Shown one piece after another: positions 9,280-62,470 of a DNA stretch of 64,000 nt. The notes under the pieces are model-generated. The model was not told where the DNA came from, ran no database searches, and saw nothing but the letters and a program-made list of their open reading frames with translations. Position 1 is the first letter of the stretch. Each line of letters begins with the position of its first letter. The position numbers and the translations under genes are program-made. The stretch comes from Escherichia phage ECBP2. Location of the stretch: sequence record NC_018859.1; one strand, given 5' to 3'.

Positions 9280-10329
9280 ATGTCTTTATTCGGGTCTGCT
9301 TCTAAGACTAAAACTACAGTGGCTCCATCTTCTCAGGTTGATGCTCTGTTAAAACAGATTGTAGCTAATGCTCAGAATATGAATAGCAATGATGCAGGTT
9401 TCATCTCTCAGCAATTGGCTGGTCTCAATCCTAATCAACAAGCTGCTCTTTCTAACCTAGCTAACTCCTCTACCCTGAACCAGTTGAGTGGTATGTATAC
9501 TCCTCGTACACAGCAGGGCTTAGATCAGATGAATACTCTGGCTCAGAAGTATTCTGCTCTAGGTAACAACTCTATTGGTGCTGGTGATGTTAATAACTTC
9601 AGTTCTGGACTTAATAACTCAGCTCTTGCTCAGTCAACTGGTAAAGCAGCTTCTAATGTATCTCTCGGTAATGGCTCTGACTCAGGTTCTCTCCGTCGTG
9701 CTTCTGCTCAAGGTGCTGCTTTGAACTCTGCTAATACTAATCTGTCTCGTAGCATCTCTGGCAAGAATTTGGGTGTTAATGCGCTCCAGTCTAATAACTC
9801 TTTCCAACAAGGATTGCTTAATGCTCAGACTGGATTAGCTGGACAGAATTTGAATCTTGGTGCTCAAGGTACACAAGCTGCTCAACAGGCTATTCAGAAC
9901 CAACTTACTGCTGGTAATCTACAGCAACAGCAAGATCAAGCACAAGCTGACCTTAATTGGCAGAACGCTATTGGTAGTCAACAATATGGGTGGAATCAAC
10001 TCAACAACCAACTGAATGTATTAAACTCAGTAAGTCCTATGGCTGGTTACACAATTACTAACAAAGGAGCCGCTCCTAATACAACTCAACAGCTTCTTGG
10101 AGCTGGTGTCACTGGTCTAGGTATTGCAGGTCGGTTAGGTGCATTCACTCCTAGTCAACAAACTACGAATGCTTGGAACTCCTACAATGCTTCTGGTGGT
10201 CAATCTGGTATGGCTGGTCCTATGATTGGTGGGTCTAACCTTTCCAACTCTTCTGGTCAGAGTAACTGGTTGTCTACAGCTGGGAGTAATATTTTAGGTG
10301 GTGTTCTCGGAGCCTTCGGGGCGAACTAA
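9280..10329 (+). CDS. Q/N/S-rich virion protein with glycine-zipper C-terminus
   Basis: 349 aa low-complexity; C-terminal LLGAGVTGLGIAGRLGAF...ILGGVLGAFGAN; paralogous to the next gene. Confidence 0.5.
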   Translation: MSLFGSASKTKTTVAPSSQVDALLKQIVANAQNMNSNDAGFISQQLAGLNPNQQAALSNLANSSTLNQLSGMYTPRTQQGLDQMNTLAQKYSALGNNSIGAGDVNNFSSGLNNSALAQSTGKAASNVSLGNGSDSGSLRRASAQGAALNSANTNLSRSISGKNLGVNALQSNNSFQQGLLNAQTGLAGQNLNLGAQGTQAAQQAIQNQLTAGNLQQQQDQAQADLNWQNAIGSQQYGWNQLNNQLNVLNSVSPMAGYTITNKGAAPNTTQQLLGAGVTGLGIAGRLGAFTPSQQTTNAWNSYNASGGQSGMAGPMIGGSNLSNSSGQSNWLSTAGSNILGGVLGAFGAN

Positions 10330-12973: not shown

Positions 12974-12984
12974 TAATGTATATA
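12974..12984 (+). promoter_or_regulatory. TAATGTATATA promoter-like motif inside a GTCCTA...TAGGAC inverted repeat
   Basis: Exact 11-mer, 35 nt upstream of the ATG at 13019; same motif recurs at four other intergenic sites. Confidence 0.5.
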
Positions 12985-50571: not shown

Positions 50572-50590
50572 ACAACCTCTTCTTTGAACT

Positions 50591-50616
50591 TAAAAAAGGA
50601 CTCTCCTAAGAGAGCC
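50591..50616 (-). terminator. rho-independent terminator
   Basis: GGCTCTC-TTAG-GAGAGTCC hairpin + U6 on the - strand. Confidence 0.5.
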
Positions 50617-50684
50617 AAGCTTTAAGGCCAATTAAATAGATATCACCCAATATCTGTGGATAACCTGCTCTTAAAATATTCTAT

Positions 50685-50815
50685 CCGACGGATGTTCGAG
50701 GACTGTTCCTCTCCCTAGCATCGGCCCCATACGGGTAAGATTAAATTAAGTTTAGGTTAGTTGAGCCAGAATAGCTCACATAGCCCTCTGATACTCACAA
50801 GGGCTATAGATGTTA
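50685..50815 (-). other. conserved 3' non-coding element, copy 1
   Basis: About 130 nt starting at the stop of gene 50813-51064; core CTCACATAGCCCTCTGATAnnCACAAGGGCTATA...GATGTTAC is shared with 56348-56465. Confidence 0.5.
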
Positions 50816-51064
50816 CTCTGTGGCTCCGTCGAAGCGTAGGATTGCTGTTGGAACAGGAATCACAACCATGTCAATCTCTAAACGGAAGAGATGGCCTGTG
50901 CTTAGCTGAACTGCTGTTACCGGTTTAGCGATACCACCAACAGATGCTGAGGGGATTCGAATAAAGAAATCCCCCGGATATTCCGTTGCACGAAATACAT
51001 CTCCCGGTGACATATCCTTTACTTGGGTAATTGATTCAGGAGGGGTTTTATTAGCAATTTGCAT
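50813..51064 (-). CDS. small GDVF-motif family protein
   Basis: VKDMSPGDVFRA... Confidence 0.5.
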   Translation of the reverse strand: MQIANKTPPESITQVKDMSPGDVFRATEYPGDFFIRIPSASVGGIAKPVTAVQLSTGHLFRLEIDMVVIPVPTAILRFDGATE

Positions 51065-51297
51065 TACAGACCTTTCTTAGCACGATCTTTGGCAGTTTTG
51101 CCAGTGCGGATACGGTGGGAAACATTAACCAGCTCGCCGCCTTCGACGATGGTCACGCTTTTGTTTTTCGCAATATCAAACACAGACTTCTCTGTACCAC
51201 CCAGACGAATCTGACGCGGTTCACTTTGGGTCTGAGTTGACTTGGATTCAAACTGGAACGGCTGACGGATGGCATCAATTGCGCTAACTTTAGACAT
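51064..51297 (-). CDS. hypothetical protein
   Basis: 77-aa ORF. Confidence 0.4.
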   Translation of the reverse strand: MSKVSAIDAIRQPFQFESKSTQTQSEPRQIRLGGTEKSVFDIAKNKSVTIVEGGELVNVSHRIRTGKTAKDRAKKGL

Positions 51298-51325: not shown

Positions 51326-51739
51326 TTAAACAACGAATTGGAACGCTTCGTATCCAAACTTGTACGAGAAACCGTGCTTGAACTTCACTACACGACCACG
51401 ATCACGGAAAGCTTTCAGACGACTGCTGAACCCAGCCATCGGCTCAGGGTCAATAGGGCTGCGAATCTTCATAGCTACAGAGTGCAGCTTGAAGCGCTTA
51501 CCAGTGCTACAGGCCATCATCACGTACTCCATACGAGTAGTCCAGATGTTAAGCACCATGCTTGTTTTCTCCGCTGACCAACCAGTCTTGCGGGCGATTT
51601 CCTTATGGATGTTAAGTTCCAAAGGAAGTGGGAATTGCTTGTTGAATGAAGCCGGATAAAGCTTGACCAGAAGATCAATGTTTTCTTTATACGTTAAGTA
51701 AGCCAATTTCTTGCTTACGTTGGGGAATTTCCCAGCCAT
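51326..51739 (-). CDS. ProQ/FinO-domain-like RNA-binding protein
   Basis: LYPASFNKQFPLPLELNIHKEIARKTGWSAEKTSMVLNIWTTRMEYVMMACSTGKRFKLHS follows the FP..F...PL.I...S...L..Y....Y...G..R.L pattern of ProQ/FinO N-domains. Confidence 0.5.
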   Translation of the reverse strand: MAGKFPNVSKKLAYLTYKENIDLLVKLYPASFNKQFPLPLELNIHKEIARKTGWSAEKTSMVLNIWTTRMEYVMMACSTGKRFKLHSVAMKIRSPIDPEPMAGFSSRLKAFRDRGRVVKFKHGFSYKFGYEAFQFVV

Positions 51740-51937
51740 TTTTGAAGCTCCAAAACAGCGCCGAAAAGAGAGGCGTCATAGTAGCTAAAGGGAGGAGAGA
51801 AGAGGGCTTATTTACTTGCCTTTTTCTGTCCGTTAATGTACCAGATAACTGAACCATCAGGCTGTCGTTGACCGAAGCCTTTCAAGTTAACCATTTCTTC
51901 TTCAGAGTAGGCACGTTTTCTCACTGATTTTCTCCTG

Positions 51938-52195
51938 TCAGTAGAAGGTGTGTGTAGAGTCGTCGTTCATAGATAACCAAACGAAGAAGACAATCACACA
52001 GAAAGCAATAATACCGAGAGTTGCAAGGATTATAGTGTTAGCTAATGTGATATCTAACACTCTTTGCAGGTACATAAAGAATTGTATGATACCACATAAC
52101 CCTAGCACGACCCCAATAACAATAAGGAGCCAGTACGTGCAGAGAAGGACTGCATCCAATAGTGATACATACTTTGGATCATCTTTATGTTTCAC
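51938..52195 (-). CDS. small multi-TM membrane protein
   Basis: Three hydrophobic segments. Confidence 0.4.
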   Translation of the reverse strand: MKHKDDPKYVSLLDAVLLCTYWLLIVIGVVLGLCGIIQFFMYLQRVLDITLANTIILATLGIIAFCVIVFFVWLSMNDDSTHTFY

Positions 52196-52448
52196 TAATC
52201 TTCTCCACTAAATCCAGAGTTGCCGATTCAAATACAACACCAACTGGCATATTGGATGCCATATTACGAACATATCCACTCTGCATCGACACAGCTCGGT
52301 GGTATTCACAACCATTAGAGCTTTTGTTTACTTTCATGTAAATGGTTTGTTCTTTATCTTCTTTCAAAGTAAAGAAAGAGCCGATAGAAACACCTGCCAC
52401 CATTAGAGGAATATCCGCAATACGAGTTTTGTTAATGGTCAGAGCCAT
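52185..52448 (-). CDS. small protein, divergent GDVF-family member
   Basis: IADIPLMVAGVSIGSFFTL. Confidence 0.4.
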   Translation of the reverse strand: MALTINKTRIADIPLMVAGVSIGSFFTLKEDKEQTIYMKVNKSSNGCEYHRAVSMQSGYVRNMASNMPVGVVFESATLDLVEKISET

Positions 52449-52451
52449 TGC

Positions 52452-52706
52452 TTACTCCTTAATAGTTGCTTCAGCTTTGATAGGAATAACAGCAACATCT
52501 TTACGAGGCGCTGTCGCTCGGCCTGTGTTAAGACAGGCTACGAGTCTGTGCTCATCCGCACCTTTAATGCAGAGTCGAGTTGAGAACTCGGTAGACAGCA
52601 AGATGTATAAATCACCATCTTCACTGTTAGGATACATAAAGCAATCCCCAAGTCGCAAAGCACTGAGGGGTATTGAATTTTTACCTGCTGGCATGTTAAC
52701 TTTCAT
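52452..52706 (-). CDS. small GDVF-motif family protein
   Basis: LSALRLGDCFMY. Confidence 0.45.
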   Translation of the reverse strand: MKVNMPAGKNSIPLSALRLGDCFMYPNSEDGDLYILLSTEFSTRLCIKGADEHRLVACLNTGRATAPRKDVAVIPIKAEATIKE

Positions 52707-52716
52707 TTCATCACCT

Positions 52717-53013
52717 TTATTTGTGAGAGTTTACGAACTCTTCAAGAACATTAACTGCATCTCGATATGCATTGGTAACTTTATACCAGTGATCAGTACC
52801 GAATGCACTCGGTTTGACGATTCTAACCAGACGACGGTGATAACGCACTGAGTAGACTAGATTCTCATAAGTCACCCTCAGTTCGTTTTTGCGTTCCATC
52901 TGAATAGATTTAAGGTGTCGCTTTGTTTTCCAGACTGTTACCGGCATAACCCTCTTACCTTGTTGTAAAGTATGGACCAATTTATGAAAGAACTCTCGGA
53001 AGAATGCTTTCAT
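52717..53013 (-). CDS. hypothetical basic protein
   Basis: 98-aa ORF. Confidence 0.4.
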   Translation of the reverse strand: MKAFFREFFHKLVHTLQQGKRVMPVTVWKTKRHLKSIQMERKNELRVTYENLVYSVRYHRRLVRIVKPSAFGTDHWYKVTNAYRDAVNVLEEFVNSHK

Positions 53014-53231
53014 AAATAGGGGGAGGGGACGAATCCTCCCATATCCTATTAATTAATGTTGCATGTAAGACCTAACAATCCGATGCTGTAGTGGATAGCG
53101 TAAAACGCTTACCGGCATTAAACCCAGCCCATGAGGGGCTTATGTGATTAAAATGCTCAACATTGAGCGGTTAGTTGATAGGAGATCTGAAGTCCTATCT
53201 CAAAGGACTCTCGTAAGAATCCTTCACGATA

Positions 53232-54294: not shown

Positions 54295-54370
54295 TGGTGC
54301 ACCCTACAGGATTCGAACCTGTAACCAACGACTTAGAAGGTCGCTGCTCTATCCATTGAGCTAAGGGTGC
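54295..54370 (-). tRNA. tRNA-Arg (anticodon UCU), CCA encoded
   Basis: GCACCCTTAGCTCAATGGATAGAGCAGCGACCTTCTAAGTCGTTGGTTACAGGTTCGAATCCTGTAGGGTGCACCA folds as a cloverleaf: 7-bp acceptor, GCTC/GAGC D-stem, anticodon loop CUUCUAA, T-arm ACAGG-TTCGAAT-CCTGT. Confidence 0.85.
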
Positions 54371-55752: not shown

Positions 55753-55796
55753 ATCAACCTCTCTTGTTAGTTTAAGTAAGAGTTATCCCTTAATTA

Positions 55797-55827
55797 AAAC
55801 AACAAAGGCCACCCCGAAGGGCAGCCT
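55797..55827 (-). terminator. rho-independent terminator
   Basis: GGCTGCCC-TTCG-GGGTGGCC hairpin + U-run on the - strand. Confidence 0.5.
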
Positions 55828-55831
55828 CTTA

Positions 55832-56029
55832 TTAAGCACTACGCAGTTTGTTATTCAAGAAGCGATCTTCTGCATTATATAGGAATGCATAGAATAATTC
55901 TTTTGCTACATCCCGATCGCAATTGAGACATTTAGAAACCTGTAACAACAGGCCATCGCGACTGTTAGGATGGTCAATTATCGCAAGACGAATAATCTCA
56001 CGGATACCAACATCATGCTCAGCCGCCAT
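55832..56029 (-). CDS. hypothetical protein
   Basis: Track start 56041 is GTG; ATG (MAAEHDVG) at 56029. Confidence 0.35.
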   Translation of the reverse strand: MAAEHDVGIREIIRLAIIDHPNSRDGLLLQVSKCLNCDRDVAKELFYAFLYNAEDRFLNNKLRSA

Positions 56030-56159
56030 AGAACCAATCACCTTGACGCTTACGGATGTTAGTGGTCAGACGAAGCATGGCAGACTCAATCTTCAGAGCA
56101 CCATTTGCTACTGCATCCATACGTTCAGGACGGTTCATACGTTTGGTTGTCTTTTTCAT
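56019..56159 (-). CDS. small basic protein (46 aa, below track cut-off)
   Basis: MKKTTKRMNRPERMDAVANG... Confidence 0.3.
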   Translation of the reverse strand: MKKTTKRMNRPERMDAVANGALKIESAMLRLTTNIRKRQGDWFYGG

Positions 56160-56190
56160 AACGTTCTCTCTTTGTTAATGGAGGCAGGAT

Positions 56191-56223
56191 TGCCAGTTAA
56201 TATAAAGGGAAGCCCTACACGTT
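56191..56223 (-). terminator. putative terminator hairpin
   Basis: GGAAGCC...GGCTTCC 7-bp stem with 11-nt loop followed by a U-rich run on the - strand. Confidence 0.35.
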
Positions 56224-56347
56224 AAGGCTTCCGCTTGTACAAACTGTCGAGAACTCTCTACCCCTAGATTGTTCTCTATCCCAAACCGATACATACCCCT
56301 ACATATCGGAATGCCATTCGAAAATTAAACAGGTTTTAGTCTATCAC

Positions 56348-56465
56348 CGGATGTTTGAGACAAGTCTCGCCCTAGCGGTGAGCCATATGGCATTGAGATT
56401 ATAGTTAATTGAGGAACATCCTCACATAGCCCTCTGATAAACACAAGGGCTATAAGTCGATGTTA
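56348..56465 (-). other. conserved 3' non-coding element, copy 2
   Basis: Core shared with 50685-50815; begins at the stop of gene 56463-56687. Confidence 0.5.
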
Positions 56466-56687
56466 CTTATTAGTTAGTCGAACGTTAGGCACAAGTTTAA
56501 CTGCTGCTGTTTTCATCTCTCCAATGACCTTACCGGTAGAGAGATTAACAAAATAAGCAGTGACTTCACCACCACAAGCTGTACGCATATAATAACTGCT
56601 TCCAGTTCTGTCAAACTGAAAAACGTCTCCCGGCTTTACATCACCAAGAGTTGTGACGCTTTGCTTTTTATCAATATCAATCTTCAT
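56463..56687 (-). CDS. small GDVF-motif family protein
   Basis: LGDVKPGDVFQF. Confidence 0.5.
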   Translation of the reverse strand: MKIDIDKKQSVTTLGDVKPGDVFQFDRTGSSYYMRTACGGEVTAYFVNLSTGKVIGEMKTAAVKLVPNVRLTNK

Positions 56688-61499: not shown

Positions 61500-62470
61500 T
61501 AGGAGAATGTTTAAATTGTTAAAGAGCGGTAAATCTATCAACGTGCTTTCTCACGTTATGCAACTGTTAGCCGTTGTTACGCTTTTCACTGAAGCGGTGA
61601 TTTGCTCAAGTGATGCTCATTATGGACCATGTTGTTTTTGCCGTCAATCACTTTTTTAATCTTTTTCGTCGTTCCCGCTATTGGGAGGATATATCAACCC
61701 GCTTTATTGGGTTGAAGATTAAGCGATGAGGCTTAACCCATGATTCATATTGTTAAAGAGCGTTTAGCCTTTTATAGTGTCTGCTAATCACTACATCATT
61801 AAAGGCTTACTTGTTCATTAACGGGGCGCCTAAGCCCGAACTACCCGCTGCACTATGTGCCACCTTTCCCGCGATACGTTGATTTGGGAACTAGTTAACG
61901 TTGTTTTGTTAACTTGTGGTTAGTATGGACTACCTTAACCACGTTTGCAACCTCTTTTTTATCATCTTCTTTTATTCTTTTCCCTTATCTCGCGTGAATC
62001 TATGCGAAAGGGCAAGATGATAAGTCTGATTTGTCTTTTAGGAATCTAGTGCGCTTTCAAGCATTGACCATTTGAAAGTATCGAACAAATGAGGCTTATT
62101 TTGTTGCTCATCGTCCGCATGTTCACGTATGAATCAGGAATCAATTCTAGTGGTCAACTAAGCGCCTTATAGTAATGACGTTCCCGCCACCTGTAAGACA
62201 AATCATATTTTTAAAGAGCGGGATTTTTCAAGTCATCGCTGACTATGCTCACTATATATCAGGCTTTTTCCGGTGTCAATACTCTTTTTCAAGTATTTTC
62301 ACTTTCTAGCCTGATTTTTAAAGAGCGGGGCAATTTCTTGCCTTGTATGTTTTACATCGTACCCGATGAAATGAAGTATACATTAATCAGATGAGGTTGC
62401 AATAGGGTAAAGCAAATTATTTTAAACTTTTTCACTATAGGGAGGTAAAAGAGCGGGCGCACGTGATACA
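61500..62470. repeat. dispersed copies of an AAAGAGCG(G) motif in a non-coding region
   Basis: TTAAAGAGCGG-like sites at about 61515, 61753, 62214, 62325 and 62449, plus 63701; no ORF of 60 aa or more between 60793 and 62352. Confidence 0.45.

What the first reader, a model, noticed from the sequence alone, without database searches (positions are those of the whole stretch)
51326..51739. ProQ/FinO-domain-like RNA-binding protein in the early region
The N-terminal 90 aa follow the ProQ/FinO pattern (FP..F...PL.I...S...L..Y....Y...G..R.L). ProQ-family proteins bind structured 3' ends of RNAs, and the gene lies within about 500 nt of copy 1 of the conserved 3' hairpin element and within the same early region as copy 2 (about 5 kb away), raising the possibility of a phage RNA-chaperone and target pair.
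Basis: partly seen in the sequence, partly recalled or inferred. Interest (0 to 1): 0.6.

Follow-up and report, generated by a model that had tools for sequence, protein, structure and literature searches.

The report
Phage-encoded minimal ProQ/FinO RNA-binding protein
A small gene in the early region of this phiEco32-like E. coli phage does encode a ProQ/FinO-type RNA-binding domain, but public databases already label its near-identical relatives that way, and the nearby conserved RNA hairpin is unlikely to be its dedicated partner.

Summary
The ORF at 51326-51739 (minus strand, 137 aa, pI 10.1) is a real gene under strong purifying selection. It is a true ProQ/FinO-domain protein. Pfam ProQ scores just above its cut-off. 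A profile of 39 homologues hits the solved ProQ, RocC, FinO, Lpp1663 and NMB1681 structures at E 2e-14 to 2e-6. A confident AlphaFold model (pLDDT 93) matches only FinO-domain structures. The 3'-nucleotide pocket (Y72, R82, T67) and the helix N-cap (S55) are kept. The conserved Arg/Lys contacts (ProQ K35, K54, R58) are absent, the turn Gly is Asn, and there is an extra conserved C-terminal helix.

The "chaperone plus target" idea is only weakly supported. The flagged hairpin has no U tail. It is the 5' part of a larger covarying structured RNA present in two copies. That RNA also occurs in about 76 Kuravirus genomes that lack this gene, and it is absent near FinO-like genes of other phages. 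The RNA does end in a ProQ-type intrinsic terminator, which also closes the gene's own operon.

UniProt already names the 97%-identical SU7 orthologue "ProQ/FinO domain-containing protein". The protein is a new member of a known kind, of moderate interest. Side observation: homologues in other phages sit beside NARP1 NAD+-reconstitution genes.

The parts
51326..51739 (-). CDS of the 137-aa ProQ/FinO-domain protein; coordinates include the stop codon. The FinO domain spans about residues 10-110 and an extra C-terminal helix spans 114-128.
   Evidence: ORF; Pfam ProQ 27.3 bits vs 27.0; phrog_18901 E 1e-62; family profile vs PDB ProQ/RocC/FinO; AF2 pLDDT 93.1; Foldseek top 26 hits all FinO-domain structures; dN/dS 0.059.
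51748..51751 (-). Shine-Dalgarno GGAG, 8 nt upstream of the ATG.
   Evidence: Read directly from the sequence. SU7 annotates a ribosome-binding site at the equivalent place.
51758..51777 (-). Small hairpin GACGCC-loop-GGCGC just upstream of the gene. Its sequence is conserved in Kuravirus phages and marks the left edge of the gene's presence/absence polymorphism.
   Evidence: Comparison of the window with phiEco32, CHD5UKE1, LAMP, WFI101126 and Paul. Its function is unknown.
50813..51297 (-). Two small co-oriented genes immediately downstream (51064..51297, 77 aa, phrog_6662; 50813..51064, 83 aa, phrog_6570). They lie in the same apparent transcription unit as the FinO-like gene.
   Evidence: ORFs with overlapping or abutting stop and start codons; PHROG hits. 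Homologues of the 77-aa gene (phi32_93) are present in phages that lack the FinO-like gene.
50780..50808 (-). No U tract follows it.
   Evidence: Repeat family D1; pattern search; fold; helix 1 of alignment A4 is 98.8% paired.
50670..50815 (-). Conserved structured RNA core, copy 1: hairpin 1, a variable second hairpin, a 3-bp hairpin, and a 6-bp stem enclosing a 5-bp hairpin flanked by the invariant segments GCUAGG and AACAUCCG.
   Evidence: Covariance model R1 scores 140 bits, E 4e-25. Covariation: 98.2% of cells paired vs 32-51% in slid controls, and score 0.398 vs 0.159 in shuffles, 0/500. No Rfam family.
50592..50616 (-). Intrinsic terminator GGCUCUCUUAGGAGAGUC-C-UUUUUU closing the operon and the structured RNA. 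It is preceded by an A-rich UUAAAG that can pair with the U tail. This is the most plausible FinO-domain ligand in the neighbourhood.
   Evidence: Terminator scan; annotated as a terminator in SU7; conserved with compensatory changes in 9 phages. Ligand rules come from PMC7367173 and PMC9674577.
56330..56462 (-). Conserved structured RNA core, copy 2, which includes hairpin copy 2 at 56426-56454. It follows the stop codon of the paralogous small ORF 56463..56687.
   Evidence: Repeat D1; model R1 scores 126 bits, E 3e-22; alignments A2 and A4.
56198..56232 (-). Terminator-like hairpin GGAAGCC-loop-GGCUUCC followed by CUUUAUAUUA, at the end of the copy-2 noncoding region.
   Evidence: Terminator scan; fold.

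Best explanation
[quoted passage not shown] It lies in the early (host-takeover) gene cluster of a Suseptimavirus-type, phiEco32-like E. coli podophage. Shown here: it is a real, selected gene; it has the FinO fold; and it keeps the two structural devices that solved FinO domains use on RNA. The first is the pocket for the 3'-terminal nucleotide (Y72 and R82, plus T67 and aromatic F104). The second is the helix N-cap that grips consecutive backbone phosphates at the base of a hairpin (S55, directly before helix 56-66). Inferred: soon after infection the protein docks on stem-loops that end in a free 3'-OH tail, meaning intrinsic terminators of phage and possibly host transcripts. There it would shield 3' ends from exonucleases or polyadenylation, or help RNA-RNA pairing, as ProQ, FinO and RocC do. 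The terminator of its own operon (50592-50616) closes a conserved structured RNA and has the A-rich flank and U6 tail typical of ProQ ligands. It is a reasonable ligand, but probably one of several. The protein lacks the conserved Arg/Lys contacts of ProQ and RocC and has an extra conserved C-terminal helix, so its specificity and affinity may differ from the characterised members.
For: Gene reality: ORF and RBS; full-length PHROG match; annotated orthologue; dN/dS 0.059. Family membership: Pfam ProQ above the gathering score; 39/39 homologues hit Pfam ProQ. The profile of the 39 hits PDB ProQ NTD 5nb9 at E 2.4e-14, RocC 7rgu at 9e-12, FinO 1dvo at 4e-10, Lpp1663 6s10 at 6.5e-9 and NMB1681 3mw6 at 2e-6. 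The AF2 model has pLDDT 93.1 and pTM 0.87. The 26 best PDB fold matches are all FinO-domain structures, with target-normalised TM about 0.7. Functional residues: P29, F32, L40, W66, R69, Y72 and R82 are invariant across the 39 homologues. The mapping to RocC and ProQ residues uses the HMM alignment and the numbering in PMC9674577 and PMC7192607. Net charge is about +14 and pI 10.1. Ligand availability: four terminator-like sites lie on the coding strand in 50-58 kb. The operon terminator is conserved and has an A-rich flank. Independent annotators reached the same assignment for homologues: 'ProQ/FinO domain-containing protein' for SU7 and 7-11 in UniProt/BFVD, and 'proQ RNA chaperone' in Erwinia, Aeromonas, Hafnia and Shewanella phages.
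Against: No RNA binding was or could be measured. Several residues whose substitution abolishes RNA binding in E. coli ProQ are different here: K35->E41, K54->A56, R58->S60, G37->N43, D82->K84, G85->S87, L71->V73. The Arg equivalent to RocC R75 is reported as about 80% conserved across the family, yet it is non-basic in this protein and in most of its phage relatives. The Pfam score is only 0.3 bits above threshold for this one sequence. Kuravirus relatives do without the gene, so it is accessory. The 'early' timing rests on homology to phiEco32 and was not tested for this phage.
Confidence: 0.6

Rival explanations
1. Dedicated chaperone-target pair. The protein is specific for the conserved hairpin, or for the larger two-copy structured RNA it belongs to, and controls the stability, processing or activity of that RNA.
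For: Proximity and shared transcription unit: the copy-1 RNA is the 3' end of the gene's own operon. The RNA is genuinely structured and conserved. It ends in a terminator with ProQ-ligand features. Grimontviridae phages SE131 and pSal-SNUABM-01 carry both a FinO-like gene and a homologous RNA about 6 kb apart.
Against: The RNA is present in 101 phage records, but a FinO-like gene at >=95% identity occurs in only 20 of them. About 76 of those records match at only 80-90% identity and fall outside that gene-carrying set. Five Kuravirus loci checked directly have both RNA copies and no FinO-like ORF, by tblastn or by family HMM. FinO-like genes in six other phage lineages have no match to the RNA model within 5-6 kb.
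Confidence: 0.12
2. Host-takeover competitor. The protein mainly acts on the host. It competes with E. coli ProQ for its sRNA and 3'UTR ligands, or protects or sequesters host RNAs, and so rewires host post-transcriptional control early in infection.
For: The gene lies in the variable early cluster thought to act in host takeover (PMC8948821). It has the same recognition devices as ProQ, so overlap in ligands is expected. It is accessory and patchily distributed, like other takeover genes.
Against: There is no direct evidence. It lacks the ProQ linker and Tudor-like C-terminal domain (137 aa). It lacks the K35/K54/R58 equivalents that E. coli ProQ needs for its ligands.
Confidence: 0.13
3. Repurposed FinO fold. 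The ribose-and-phosphate pocket is kept, but the protein's main ligand is not an RNA hairpin. It could be a nucleotide or an NAD/ADP-ribose-derived molecule, or an RNA end carrying such a group, functionally connected with phage NAD+-reconstitution anti-defence genes.
For: Homologues lie directly beside Prs-like and NAMPT-like genes (NARP1, Adps+Namat), or beside NAMPT with NMNAT/Nudix, in at least six separate contexts. NARP1 identity follows bioRxiv 10.1101/2024.02.11.579819. The duplex-contacting basic residues are lost while pocket residues are invariant.
Against: The N-cap position and helix are retained, which argues for continued backbone recognition. This window has no Prs or NAMPT homologue. 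Gene adjacency may only reflect a shared early-gene module. No ligand data exist.
Confidence: 0.05
4. Non-functional or mis-called ORF.
For: The GenBank records of related phages call it a hypothetical protein.
Against: dN/dS is 0.059. It has a full-length PHROG family and 44 homologues in a 1.8-billion-protein library. The fold prediction is confident.
Confidence: 0.01

Closest known systems
RocC FinO domain of Legionella pneumophila (PDB 7RGU/7RGT), bound to the RocR terminator
   Same: It is the best structural match: Foldseek E 3e-4, target-normalised TM about 0.7, rmsd about 3 A, with profile E 9e-12. It shares the pocket Tyr and Arg (RocC Y87/R97 = Y72/R82), the Thr (T82 = T67) and the N-cap Ser (S70 = S55).
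   Different: RocC R75 is S60 here and G52 is N43. RocC has a long C-terminal extension and one dedicated sRNA partner. Here there is one extra conserved helix, and no dedicated partner is supported.
Minimal FinO-domain proteins: Neisseria meningitidis ProQ (NMB1681, PDB 3MW6) and Legionella Lpp1663 (PDB 6S10)
   Same: They are also little more than a bare FinO domain of similar size, and both are recovered by sequence profile and by fold. This is the architecture class the phage protein most resembles.
   Different: They are chromosomal global RNA binders. Sequence identity is only 15-25%. They keep the conserved basic contacts that the phage protein lacks.
E. coli/Salmonella ProQ
   Same: The N-terminal FinO domain is homologous: this is the top PDB sequence hit, 5NB9 at E 2.4e-14. 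Y70 and R80 are conserved as Y72 and R82.
   Different: There is no linker and no Tudor-like C-terminal domain. K35, K54, R58, G37, D82 and G85, all needed for RNA binding in ProQ (PMC7192607), are substituted.
Plasmid FinO and FopA (dedicated antisense-RNA partners FinP and Inc)
   Same: They are mobile-element-encoded FinO domains (1DVO hit at E 4e-10).
   Different: No cis-antisense partner was identified. The nearby structured RNA does not co-occur with the gene across phages.
Other phage FinO-like proteins: SU7 A0A8F3C9D8, Salmonella 7-11 G0X555 (two-domain, 234 aa), the Erwinia Kolesnikvirus 'proQ' gene, and the Aeromonas Lahexavirus 'RNA chaperone'
   Same: They belong to the same subfamily, at 97% identity to SU7 and 27-35% to the others. 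Most homologues likewise have a non-basic residue at the R58 position, and many carry the C-terminal F-x-K-x-F-x-K-x-[FY]-G-x-P-A-[FL] helix. They are already labelled ProQ/FinO in UniProt or GenBank.
   Different: Many of them sit beside NARP1 NAD+-reconstitution genes and this one does not. The 7-11 group has an added C-terminal domain. I found no experimental characterisation of any of them.

Membership tests
ProQ/FinO domain family (Pfam PF04352) | Sequence-profile match at or above the curated threshold | tested here: met
   27.3 bits vs gathering score 27.0, E 3.7e-6, which is marginal for the single sequence. All 39 homologues hit PF04352, best E 1.7e-20. Their joint profile hits five solved FinO-domain proteins at E 2e-14 to 2e-6.
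ProQ/FinO domain family (Pfam PF04352) | FinO-domain fold (helical core with a beta-hairpin) | tested here: met
   AF2 model with pLDDT 93.1 and pTM 0.87: helices 10-27, 44-52, 56-66, 70-79, beta-hairpin 81-83/93-95, helix 98-110. The top 26 Foldseek PDB hits are all RocC, NMB1681, Lpp1663 or FinO, and the next hit has E > 1.
ProQ/FinO domain family (Pfam PF04352) | Pocket for the 3'-terminal nucleotide: conserved Tyr and Arg (RocC Y87/R97, ProQ Y70/R80) | tested here: met
   Y72 and R82 align to these positions and are invariant in all 39 homologues. The role of the residues is from PMC9674577 and PMC7192607.
ProQ/FinO domain family (Pfam PF04352) | Alpha-helical N-cap (Ser/Thr/Asp) that binds consecutive hairpin phosphates (RocC S70, ProQ S53) | tested here: met
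   S55 aligns to it and lies immediately before predicted helix 56-66. Homologues have S, T, D or H at this position.
ProQ/FinO domain family (Pfam PF04352) | Nearly invariant Gly in the beta-turn before the pocket helix (RocC G52, ProQ G37) | tested here: not met
   This protein has N43 (LELNI). The consensus of the 39 homologues is Gly (LaiGi). Asn can also occupy such turns, so this is a deviation and not a disproof.
ProQ/FinO domain family (Pfam PF04352) | Conserved Arg/Lys on the N-cap helix contacting the RNA backbone (RocC R75, ProQ R58; about 80% Arg in the family per PMC9674577) | tested here: not met
   S60 occupies this position, and most of the 39 phage homologues also have a non-basic residue there. 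K58, two residues earlier, aligns with RocC K73.
ProQ/FinO domain family (Pfam PF04352) | Binding of a stem-loop with a free 3'-OH single-stranded tail | not testable with these tools
   This needs EMSA, ITC or CLIP. Only ligand availability was checked, through the terminators found.
Enterobacterial ProQ (global chaperone architecture) | FinO domain plus a basic linker plus a Tudor-like C-terminal domain | tested here: not met
   The protein is 137 aa in total. After the FinO domain there is only one helix, 114-128. No other Pfam domain was found.
FinO/FopA/RocC-type dedicated protein-RNA pair | A cognate structured RNA that travels with the protein gene | tested here: not met
   The candidate RNA is present in Kuravirus phages that lack the gene. 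It is absent near homologous genes in six other lineages. The two co-occur only in Suseptimavirus-type phages and Grimontviridae.

The most novel reading that the evidence does not exclude
This phage FinO-like subfamily has kept the ribose/phosphate pocket but lost the usual duplex-contacting Arg/Lys residues. It may be a functional accessory of phage NAD+-reconstitution anti-defence modules, since it sits beside NARP1 or NAMPT/NMNAT genes in at least six other phage contexts. It might recognise an NAD/ADP-ribose-derived ligand, or RNA ends modified with one, instead of acting as a classical sRNA chaperone. The copy in this phage would then be a stand-alone version of that function.
Probability: 0.05. 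Interest if true: 0.8.

Novelty: new member of a known kind. Interest (0 to 1): 0.4.

Why it matters
FinO/ProQ proteins are one of the three main classes of bacterial small-RNA partners. They are well studied on chromosomes and plasmids. Reviews note that homologues occur on phages (PMC9977716), but I found no study of one from a virulent phage. A 137-aa, single-domain version made early in infection would be a compact model for how the FinO domain reads RNA 3' ends without the usual Arg/Lys contacts. It would also open a way into phage post-transcriptional control. Near-identical orthologues occur in the BASEL phages Bas86 and Bas88, which makes deletion and CLIP experiments feasible. Two side observations may be worth more than the gene itself. 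One is a covarying structured RNA present in two copies per genome, with no Rfam family. The other is the recurrent adjacency of homologues to NAD+-reconstitution genes.

Tried and rejected
1. A single-sequence search of PDB chains found nothing meaningful, best E 1.3. The alignment-based profile was needed.
2. The search for homologous proteins returned only the protein's own 90% cluster. The exhaustive representative search supplied the 44 homologues.
3. The search for related loci with alignments A1 and A5 failed because no stretch was conserved enough. Contexts were collected one at a time with the look-up of encoding contigs and the fetch of an annotated region instead.
4. A scan of IMG/VR with the RNA core pattern GCTAGG-N(8-22)-AACATCCG gave 120 loci. 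None of the 26 of them re-scored with the covariance model matched, so that sample is chance and the pattern is too loose for a collection scan.
5. Rfam gave no family for the intergenic RNAs at gathering or at E <= 1. It found only the tRNA-Arg and sub-threshold TarB and ryfA matches.
6. NCBIfam gave nothing useful for the gene or its neighbours.
7. A search for a second, divergent FinO-like ORF with the family HMM found none in the window or in the Kuravirus loci.
8. I checked whether the gene is driven by a gp36 middle/late promoter. No exact TAATGTATA lies between 29.7 and 62.4 kb, and one-mismatch hits are at chance level.
9. Literature searches for a characterised phage-encoded FinO/ProQ protein found none.
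Full report
**What the window is.** The 3 kb around the finding matches 96 phage records at 80-95% identity. All are phiEco32-like E. coli and Shigella podophages of the subfamily Gordonclarkvirinae. The closest are TH34, TH43, Bas88, PAS59, EK010 and vB_EcoP_SU7, genus Suseptimavirus. Genes on the plus strand up to about 17.4 kb are large structural genes. From 17.7 kb onward genes run on the minus strand, and toward the right end they are many short ORFs plus a tRNA-Arg(TCT) at 54295-54370. In phiEco32 this variable cluster of small leftward genes is the experimentally defined early class and is thought to act in host takeover (PMC8948821). In the window, exact matches to the middle/late gp36 promoter element TAATGTATA occur only at 12974, 22625, 22696, 29690 and 62377, so none lies near the gene. 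"Early region" is therefore reasonable, but it rests on homology.

**The observation.** A GGAG lies 8 nt upstream. The ORF matches phrog_18901 end to end at E 1e-62 and equals the annotated SU7_91. Against SU7 it has 24 nucleotide differences but only 4 amino-acid changes, giving dN/dS 0.059. It is a real, constrained gene. The product is strongly basic, with 24 K+R against 10 D+E and pI 10.1.

**Is it ProQ/FinO? Sequence evidence.**
- The single sequence scores 27.3 bits on Pfam PF04352, against a gathering score of 27.0. Alone, this is marginal.
- An exhaustive HMMER search of 1.8 billion representative proteins found 44 homologues.
- Thirty-nine of these, aligned as A1, all hit PF04352 individually, best E 1.7e-20.
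- Their joint profile hits the solved FinO-domain proteins: E. coli ProQ NTD 5NB9 (2.4e-14), Legionella RocC 7RGU (9e-12), F-plasmid FinO 1DVO (4e-10), Lpp1663 6S10 (6.5e-9) and Neisseria NMB1681 3MW6 (1.9e-6).

**Is it ProQ/FinO? Structure evidence.**
- AlphaFold2 run with A1 gives a confident model, pLDDT 93.1 and pTM 0.87.
- Its 26 best PDB matches by Foldseek are all RocC, NMB1681, Lpp1663 or FinO, with target-normalised TM about 0.7 and rmsd about 3 A.
- The 27th hit has E > 1.

The homology claim is therefore solid.

**Functional residues kept.** I used the HMM alignment, the family alignment and the residue roles described for RocC-RocR (PMC9674577) and ProQ (PMC7192607).
- The pocket that buries the 3'-terminal nucleotide is intact. 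RocC Y87/R97, equal to ProQ Y70/R80, are Y72/R82 here. Both are invariant in all 39 homologues.
- T82 corresponds to T67.
- The position that is usually His or Tyr on the last helix is F104.
- The N-cap serine that grips consecutive phosphates at the hairpin base (RocC S70, ProQ S53) is S55. In the model it sits immediately before helix 56-66.

**Functional residues lost or added.**
- The Arg reported as about 80% conserved across the family (RocC R75, ProQ R58) is S60. It is non-basic in most of the phage homologues.
- ProQ K35 and K54 are E41 and A56.
- The near-invariant turn Gly (G37/G52) is N43 in this protein, although the subfamily consensus is Gly.
- D82 and G85 are K84 and S87.
- After the FinO domain there is one extra helix, 114-128, carrying a motif F-x-K-x-F-x-K-x-[FY]-G-x-P-A-[FL] that many homologues share.

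The protein is thus a bona fide but divergent, minimal FinO-domain protein. RNA binding is inferred, not shown.

**Distribution of the gene.**
- tblastn against 50,697 phage records finds the protein at >=95% identity in only 20 Suseptimavirus-type records.
- It then appears at about 30-35% identity in Erwinia, Salmonella, Hafnia and Enterobacter Kolesnikvirus myophages, in 7-11-like Grimontviridae, in Aeromonas Lahexavirus and in a Shewanella phage.
- Several of these are already annotated "proQ RNA chaperone" or "ProQ/FINO family protein".
- The viral structure library labels the SU7 orthologue (97% identical) and the 7-11 homologue "ProQ/FinO domain-containing protein". The domain assignment is therefore already public.
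- A review notes that FinO/ProQ homologues occur on phages (PMC9977716). I found no experimental study of one from a virulent phage.

**The gene is a presence/absence polymorphism.** Kuravirus phages (phiEco32, CHD5UKE1, LAMP, WFI101126, Paul) lack the gene, by tblastn and by family HMM. At the equivalent place, between the phi32_94 and phi32_93 homologues, they have a 107-nt spacer whose left part is conserved with the window. The gene is an accessory cassette.

**The proposed RNA target.** The repeat is real. TATAGCCCT-loop-AGGGCTAT occurs on the minus strand at 50780-50808 and 56426-56454, two matches against 0.1 expected by chance. Each copy begins a few nucleotides after the stop codon of a paralogous small ORF, 50813..51064 and 56463..56687. 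It is not a terminator, because no U tract follows it. It is the first hairpin of a much larger noncoding element of 231 and 261 nt. The two copies share:
- a second hairpin;
- a 3-bp hairpin, CCC-GUAU-GGG or GCC-AUAU-GGC;
- a 6-bp stem enclosing a 5-bp hairpin, flanked by the invariant segments GCUAGG and AACAUCCG.

Each region ends in an intrinsic terminator.

**Conservation and covariation of the RNA.**
- Homologous regions exist in 101 phage records, including phiEco32 itself and the Grimontviridae SE131 and pSal-SNUABM-01.
- On 16 sequences, 98.2% of cells form pairs, against 32-51% when partners are slid.
- The covariation score is 0.398 against 0.159 in shuffles, with 0 of 500 shuffles reaching it.
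- Nine of 24 pairs show double changes.
- Over the full copy-1 region, 13 of 67 pairs show compensatory changes.
- Rfam has no family for it.
- A covariance model finds exactly two copies in the window.

**Does the RNA go with the protein?** It does not do so in any strict sense. About 76 records carry the RNA at 80-90% identity but not the gene. This was checked directly in five Kuravirus loci, which hold both RNA copies. Conversely, the RNA model finds nothing within 5-6 kb of FinO-like genes in the Erwinia, Aeromonas and metagenomic lineages. The two co-occur only in Suseptimavirus-type phages and Grimontviridae. What remains in favour of a link is positional. The copy-1 RNA is the 3' end of the gene's own operon. 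Its terminator, GGCUCUCUUAGGAGAGUC-C-U6, is preceded by UUAAAG. That gives it the hairpin, the tail of at least four U residues and the A-rich 5' flank that characterise ProQ-domain ligands (PMC7367173). In Kuravirus the same terminator would have only host ProQ available. I therefore treat it as one plausible ligand among several terminators in the region, not as a dedicated partner.

**Mechanism.** The best-supported reading has three steps. An early, abundant, basic, minimal FinO-domain protein docks on terminator hairpins with free 3'-OH tails. It does so through the N-cap and the Tyr/Arg pocket. This stabilises transcripts or assists pairing. The first two elements are shown at the level of sequence and predicted structure. 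The binding and its consequences are inferred from RocC, ProQ and FinO. The rivals, each with its refuting experiment, are given in the Rival explanations section:
- a dedicated pair with the structured RNA;
- competition with host ProQ;
- a repurposed pocket;
- a non-functional ORF.

**An unexpected context for the homologues.** Outside this phage group the FinO-like gene repeatedly sits next to NAD+-related genes:
- ProQ then Prs-like (P0002);
- ProQ, an 82-aa ORF, Prs-like, then NAMPT-like (P0003);
- ProQ, Prs-like, NAMPT-like (P0004);
- NMNAT/Nudix, ProQ, NAMPT (P0010);
- Prs-like, NAMPT-like, ProQ in Erwinia phage Pistou;
- ProQ, one gene, Prs-like, NAMPT-like in SE131 and pSal-SNUABM-01.

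tblastn confirms these assignments. The Prs-like plus NAMPT-like operon is the NARP1 anti-defence pathway, Adps plus Namat, and the paper describing it does not mention a ProQ-like neighbour (bioRxiv 10.1101/2024.02.11.579819). Other contexts lack it: the window, Aeromonas LAh_8, and P0005, P0013 and P0015. The lineages are not fully independent, so this is a lead and not a finding.

**Verdict.** It is already present in public annotation of near-identical orthologues. The specific hairpin-target idea is not supported, although the operon's terminator is a sensible ligand. The protein is a new, divergent member of a known kind and is of moderate interest. The two-copy structured RNA and the NARP1 linkage are the parts that deserve separate follow-up.

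Noticed in passing
50585-50815 (-) and 56205-56465 (-); homologous regions at L005:3853-4080 and 9822-10033, L003:7944-8160, L004:7944-8175: A conserved, covarying structured noncoding RNA occurs in two paralogous copies per genome in Gordonclarkvirinae and in one copy in Grimontviridae. It has no Rfam family. Each copy starts right after a small paralogous ORF and ends in an intrinsic terminator just upstream of the next gene. It could be a 3'UTR-derived sRNA, a leader/attenuator, or a put-like read-through element. PMC8948821 notes that phage 7-11 must have an undefined antitermination strategy.
   Followed up: partly
L130, L131-L133, L134, L136, L139, L003, L004 (loci of homologous FinO-like genes): FinO-like homologues in at least six other phage contexts lie directly beside Prs-like (Adps) and NAMPT-like (Namat) genes of the NARP1 NAD+-reconstitution anti-defence pathway, or beside NAMPT plus NMNAT/Nudix. 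The window itself has no Prs or NAMPT homologue. The NARP1 paper I read does not mention this neighbour.
   Followed up: partly
50813..51064, 52185..52448, 52452..52706, 56463..56687 (all minus strand): A family of paralogous 74-87-aa proteins is scattered through the early region, with cross-hits among phrog_6570, 12612, 7832 and 7431. Two members are the ORFs that immediately precede the two structured RNA copies. Their function is unknown.
   Followed up: no
55753-56204 (-), including the terminator at 55804-55829: Downstream of RNA copy 2 there is a further stretch of about 450 nt without a sizeable minus-strand ORF. It ends in a strong terminator (11-bp stem, GC-rich) and has a sub-threshold Rfam ryfA-like match at 55801-55956 (E 0.4). 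It may hold another noncoding transcript.
   Followed up: no
53014-53231 (-): Another intergenic region of about 220 nt contains several hairpins. One is GGGAGGAUUCGUCCCCUCCC, immediately before the ATG of ORF 52717..53013. That ORF and this region are absent from SU7 but present in TH34.
   Followed up: no
51719-51739 (-) in the window; L005:4990-5060 (-) in phiEco32: The FinO-like ORF begins ATGGCTGGGAAATTCCCC, which contains a palindrome. Kuravirus phages lack the gene but have a hairpin GCGTAGGGAATTCCCTCTACGC followed by AGCCAT, the reverse complement of ATGGCT, at the same site. This may be a trace of the insertion or deletion event, or coincidence.
   Followed up: no
BFVD entries G0X575 (Salmonella phage 7-11) and K4F7Y7 (Cronobacter phage GAP52): Fold search shows that 7-11 has a second, unannotated FinO-like protein (125 aa) and that GAP52 has one too (144 aa). 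Both are too divergent for tblastn. Some phages may therefore carry two FinO-domain proteins. No second one was found in this window with the family HMM.
   Followed up: partly
62377-62385 (-): An exact match to the phiEco32 gp36 middle/late promoter element TAATGTATA lies at the far right of the minus-strand cluster, upstream of what should be early genes. Its significance is untested, and one-mismatch matches occur at chance frequency.
   Followed up: no
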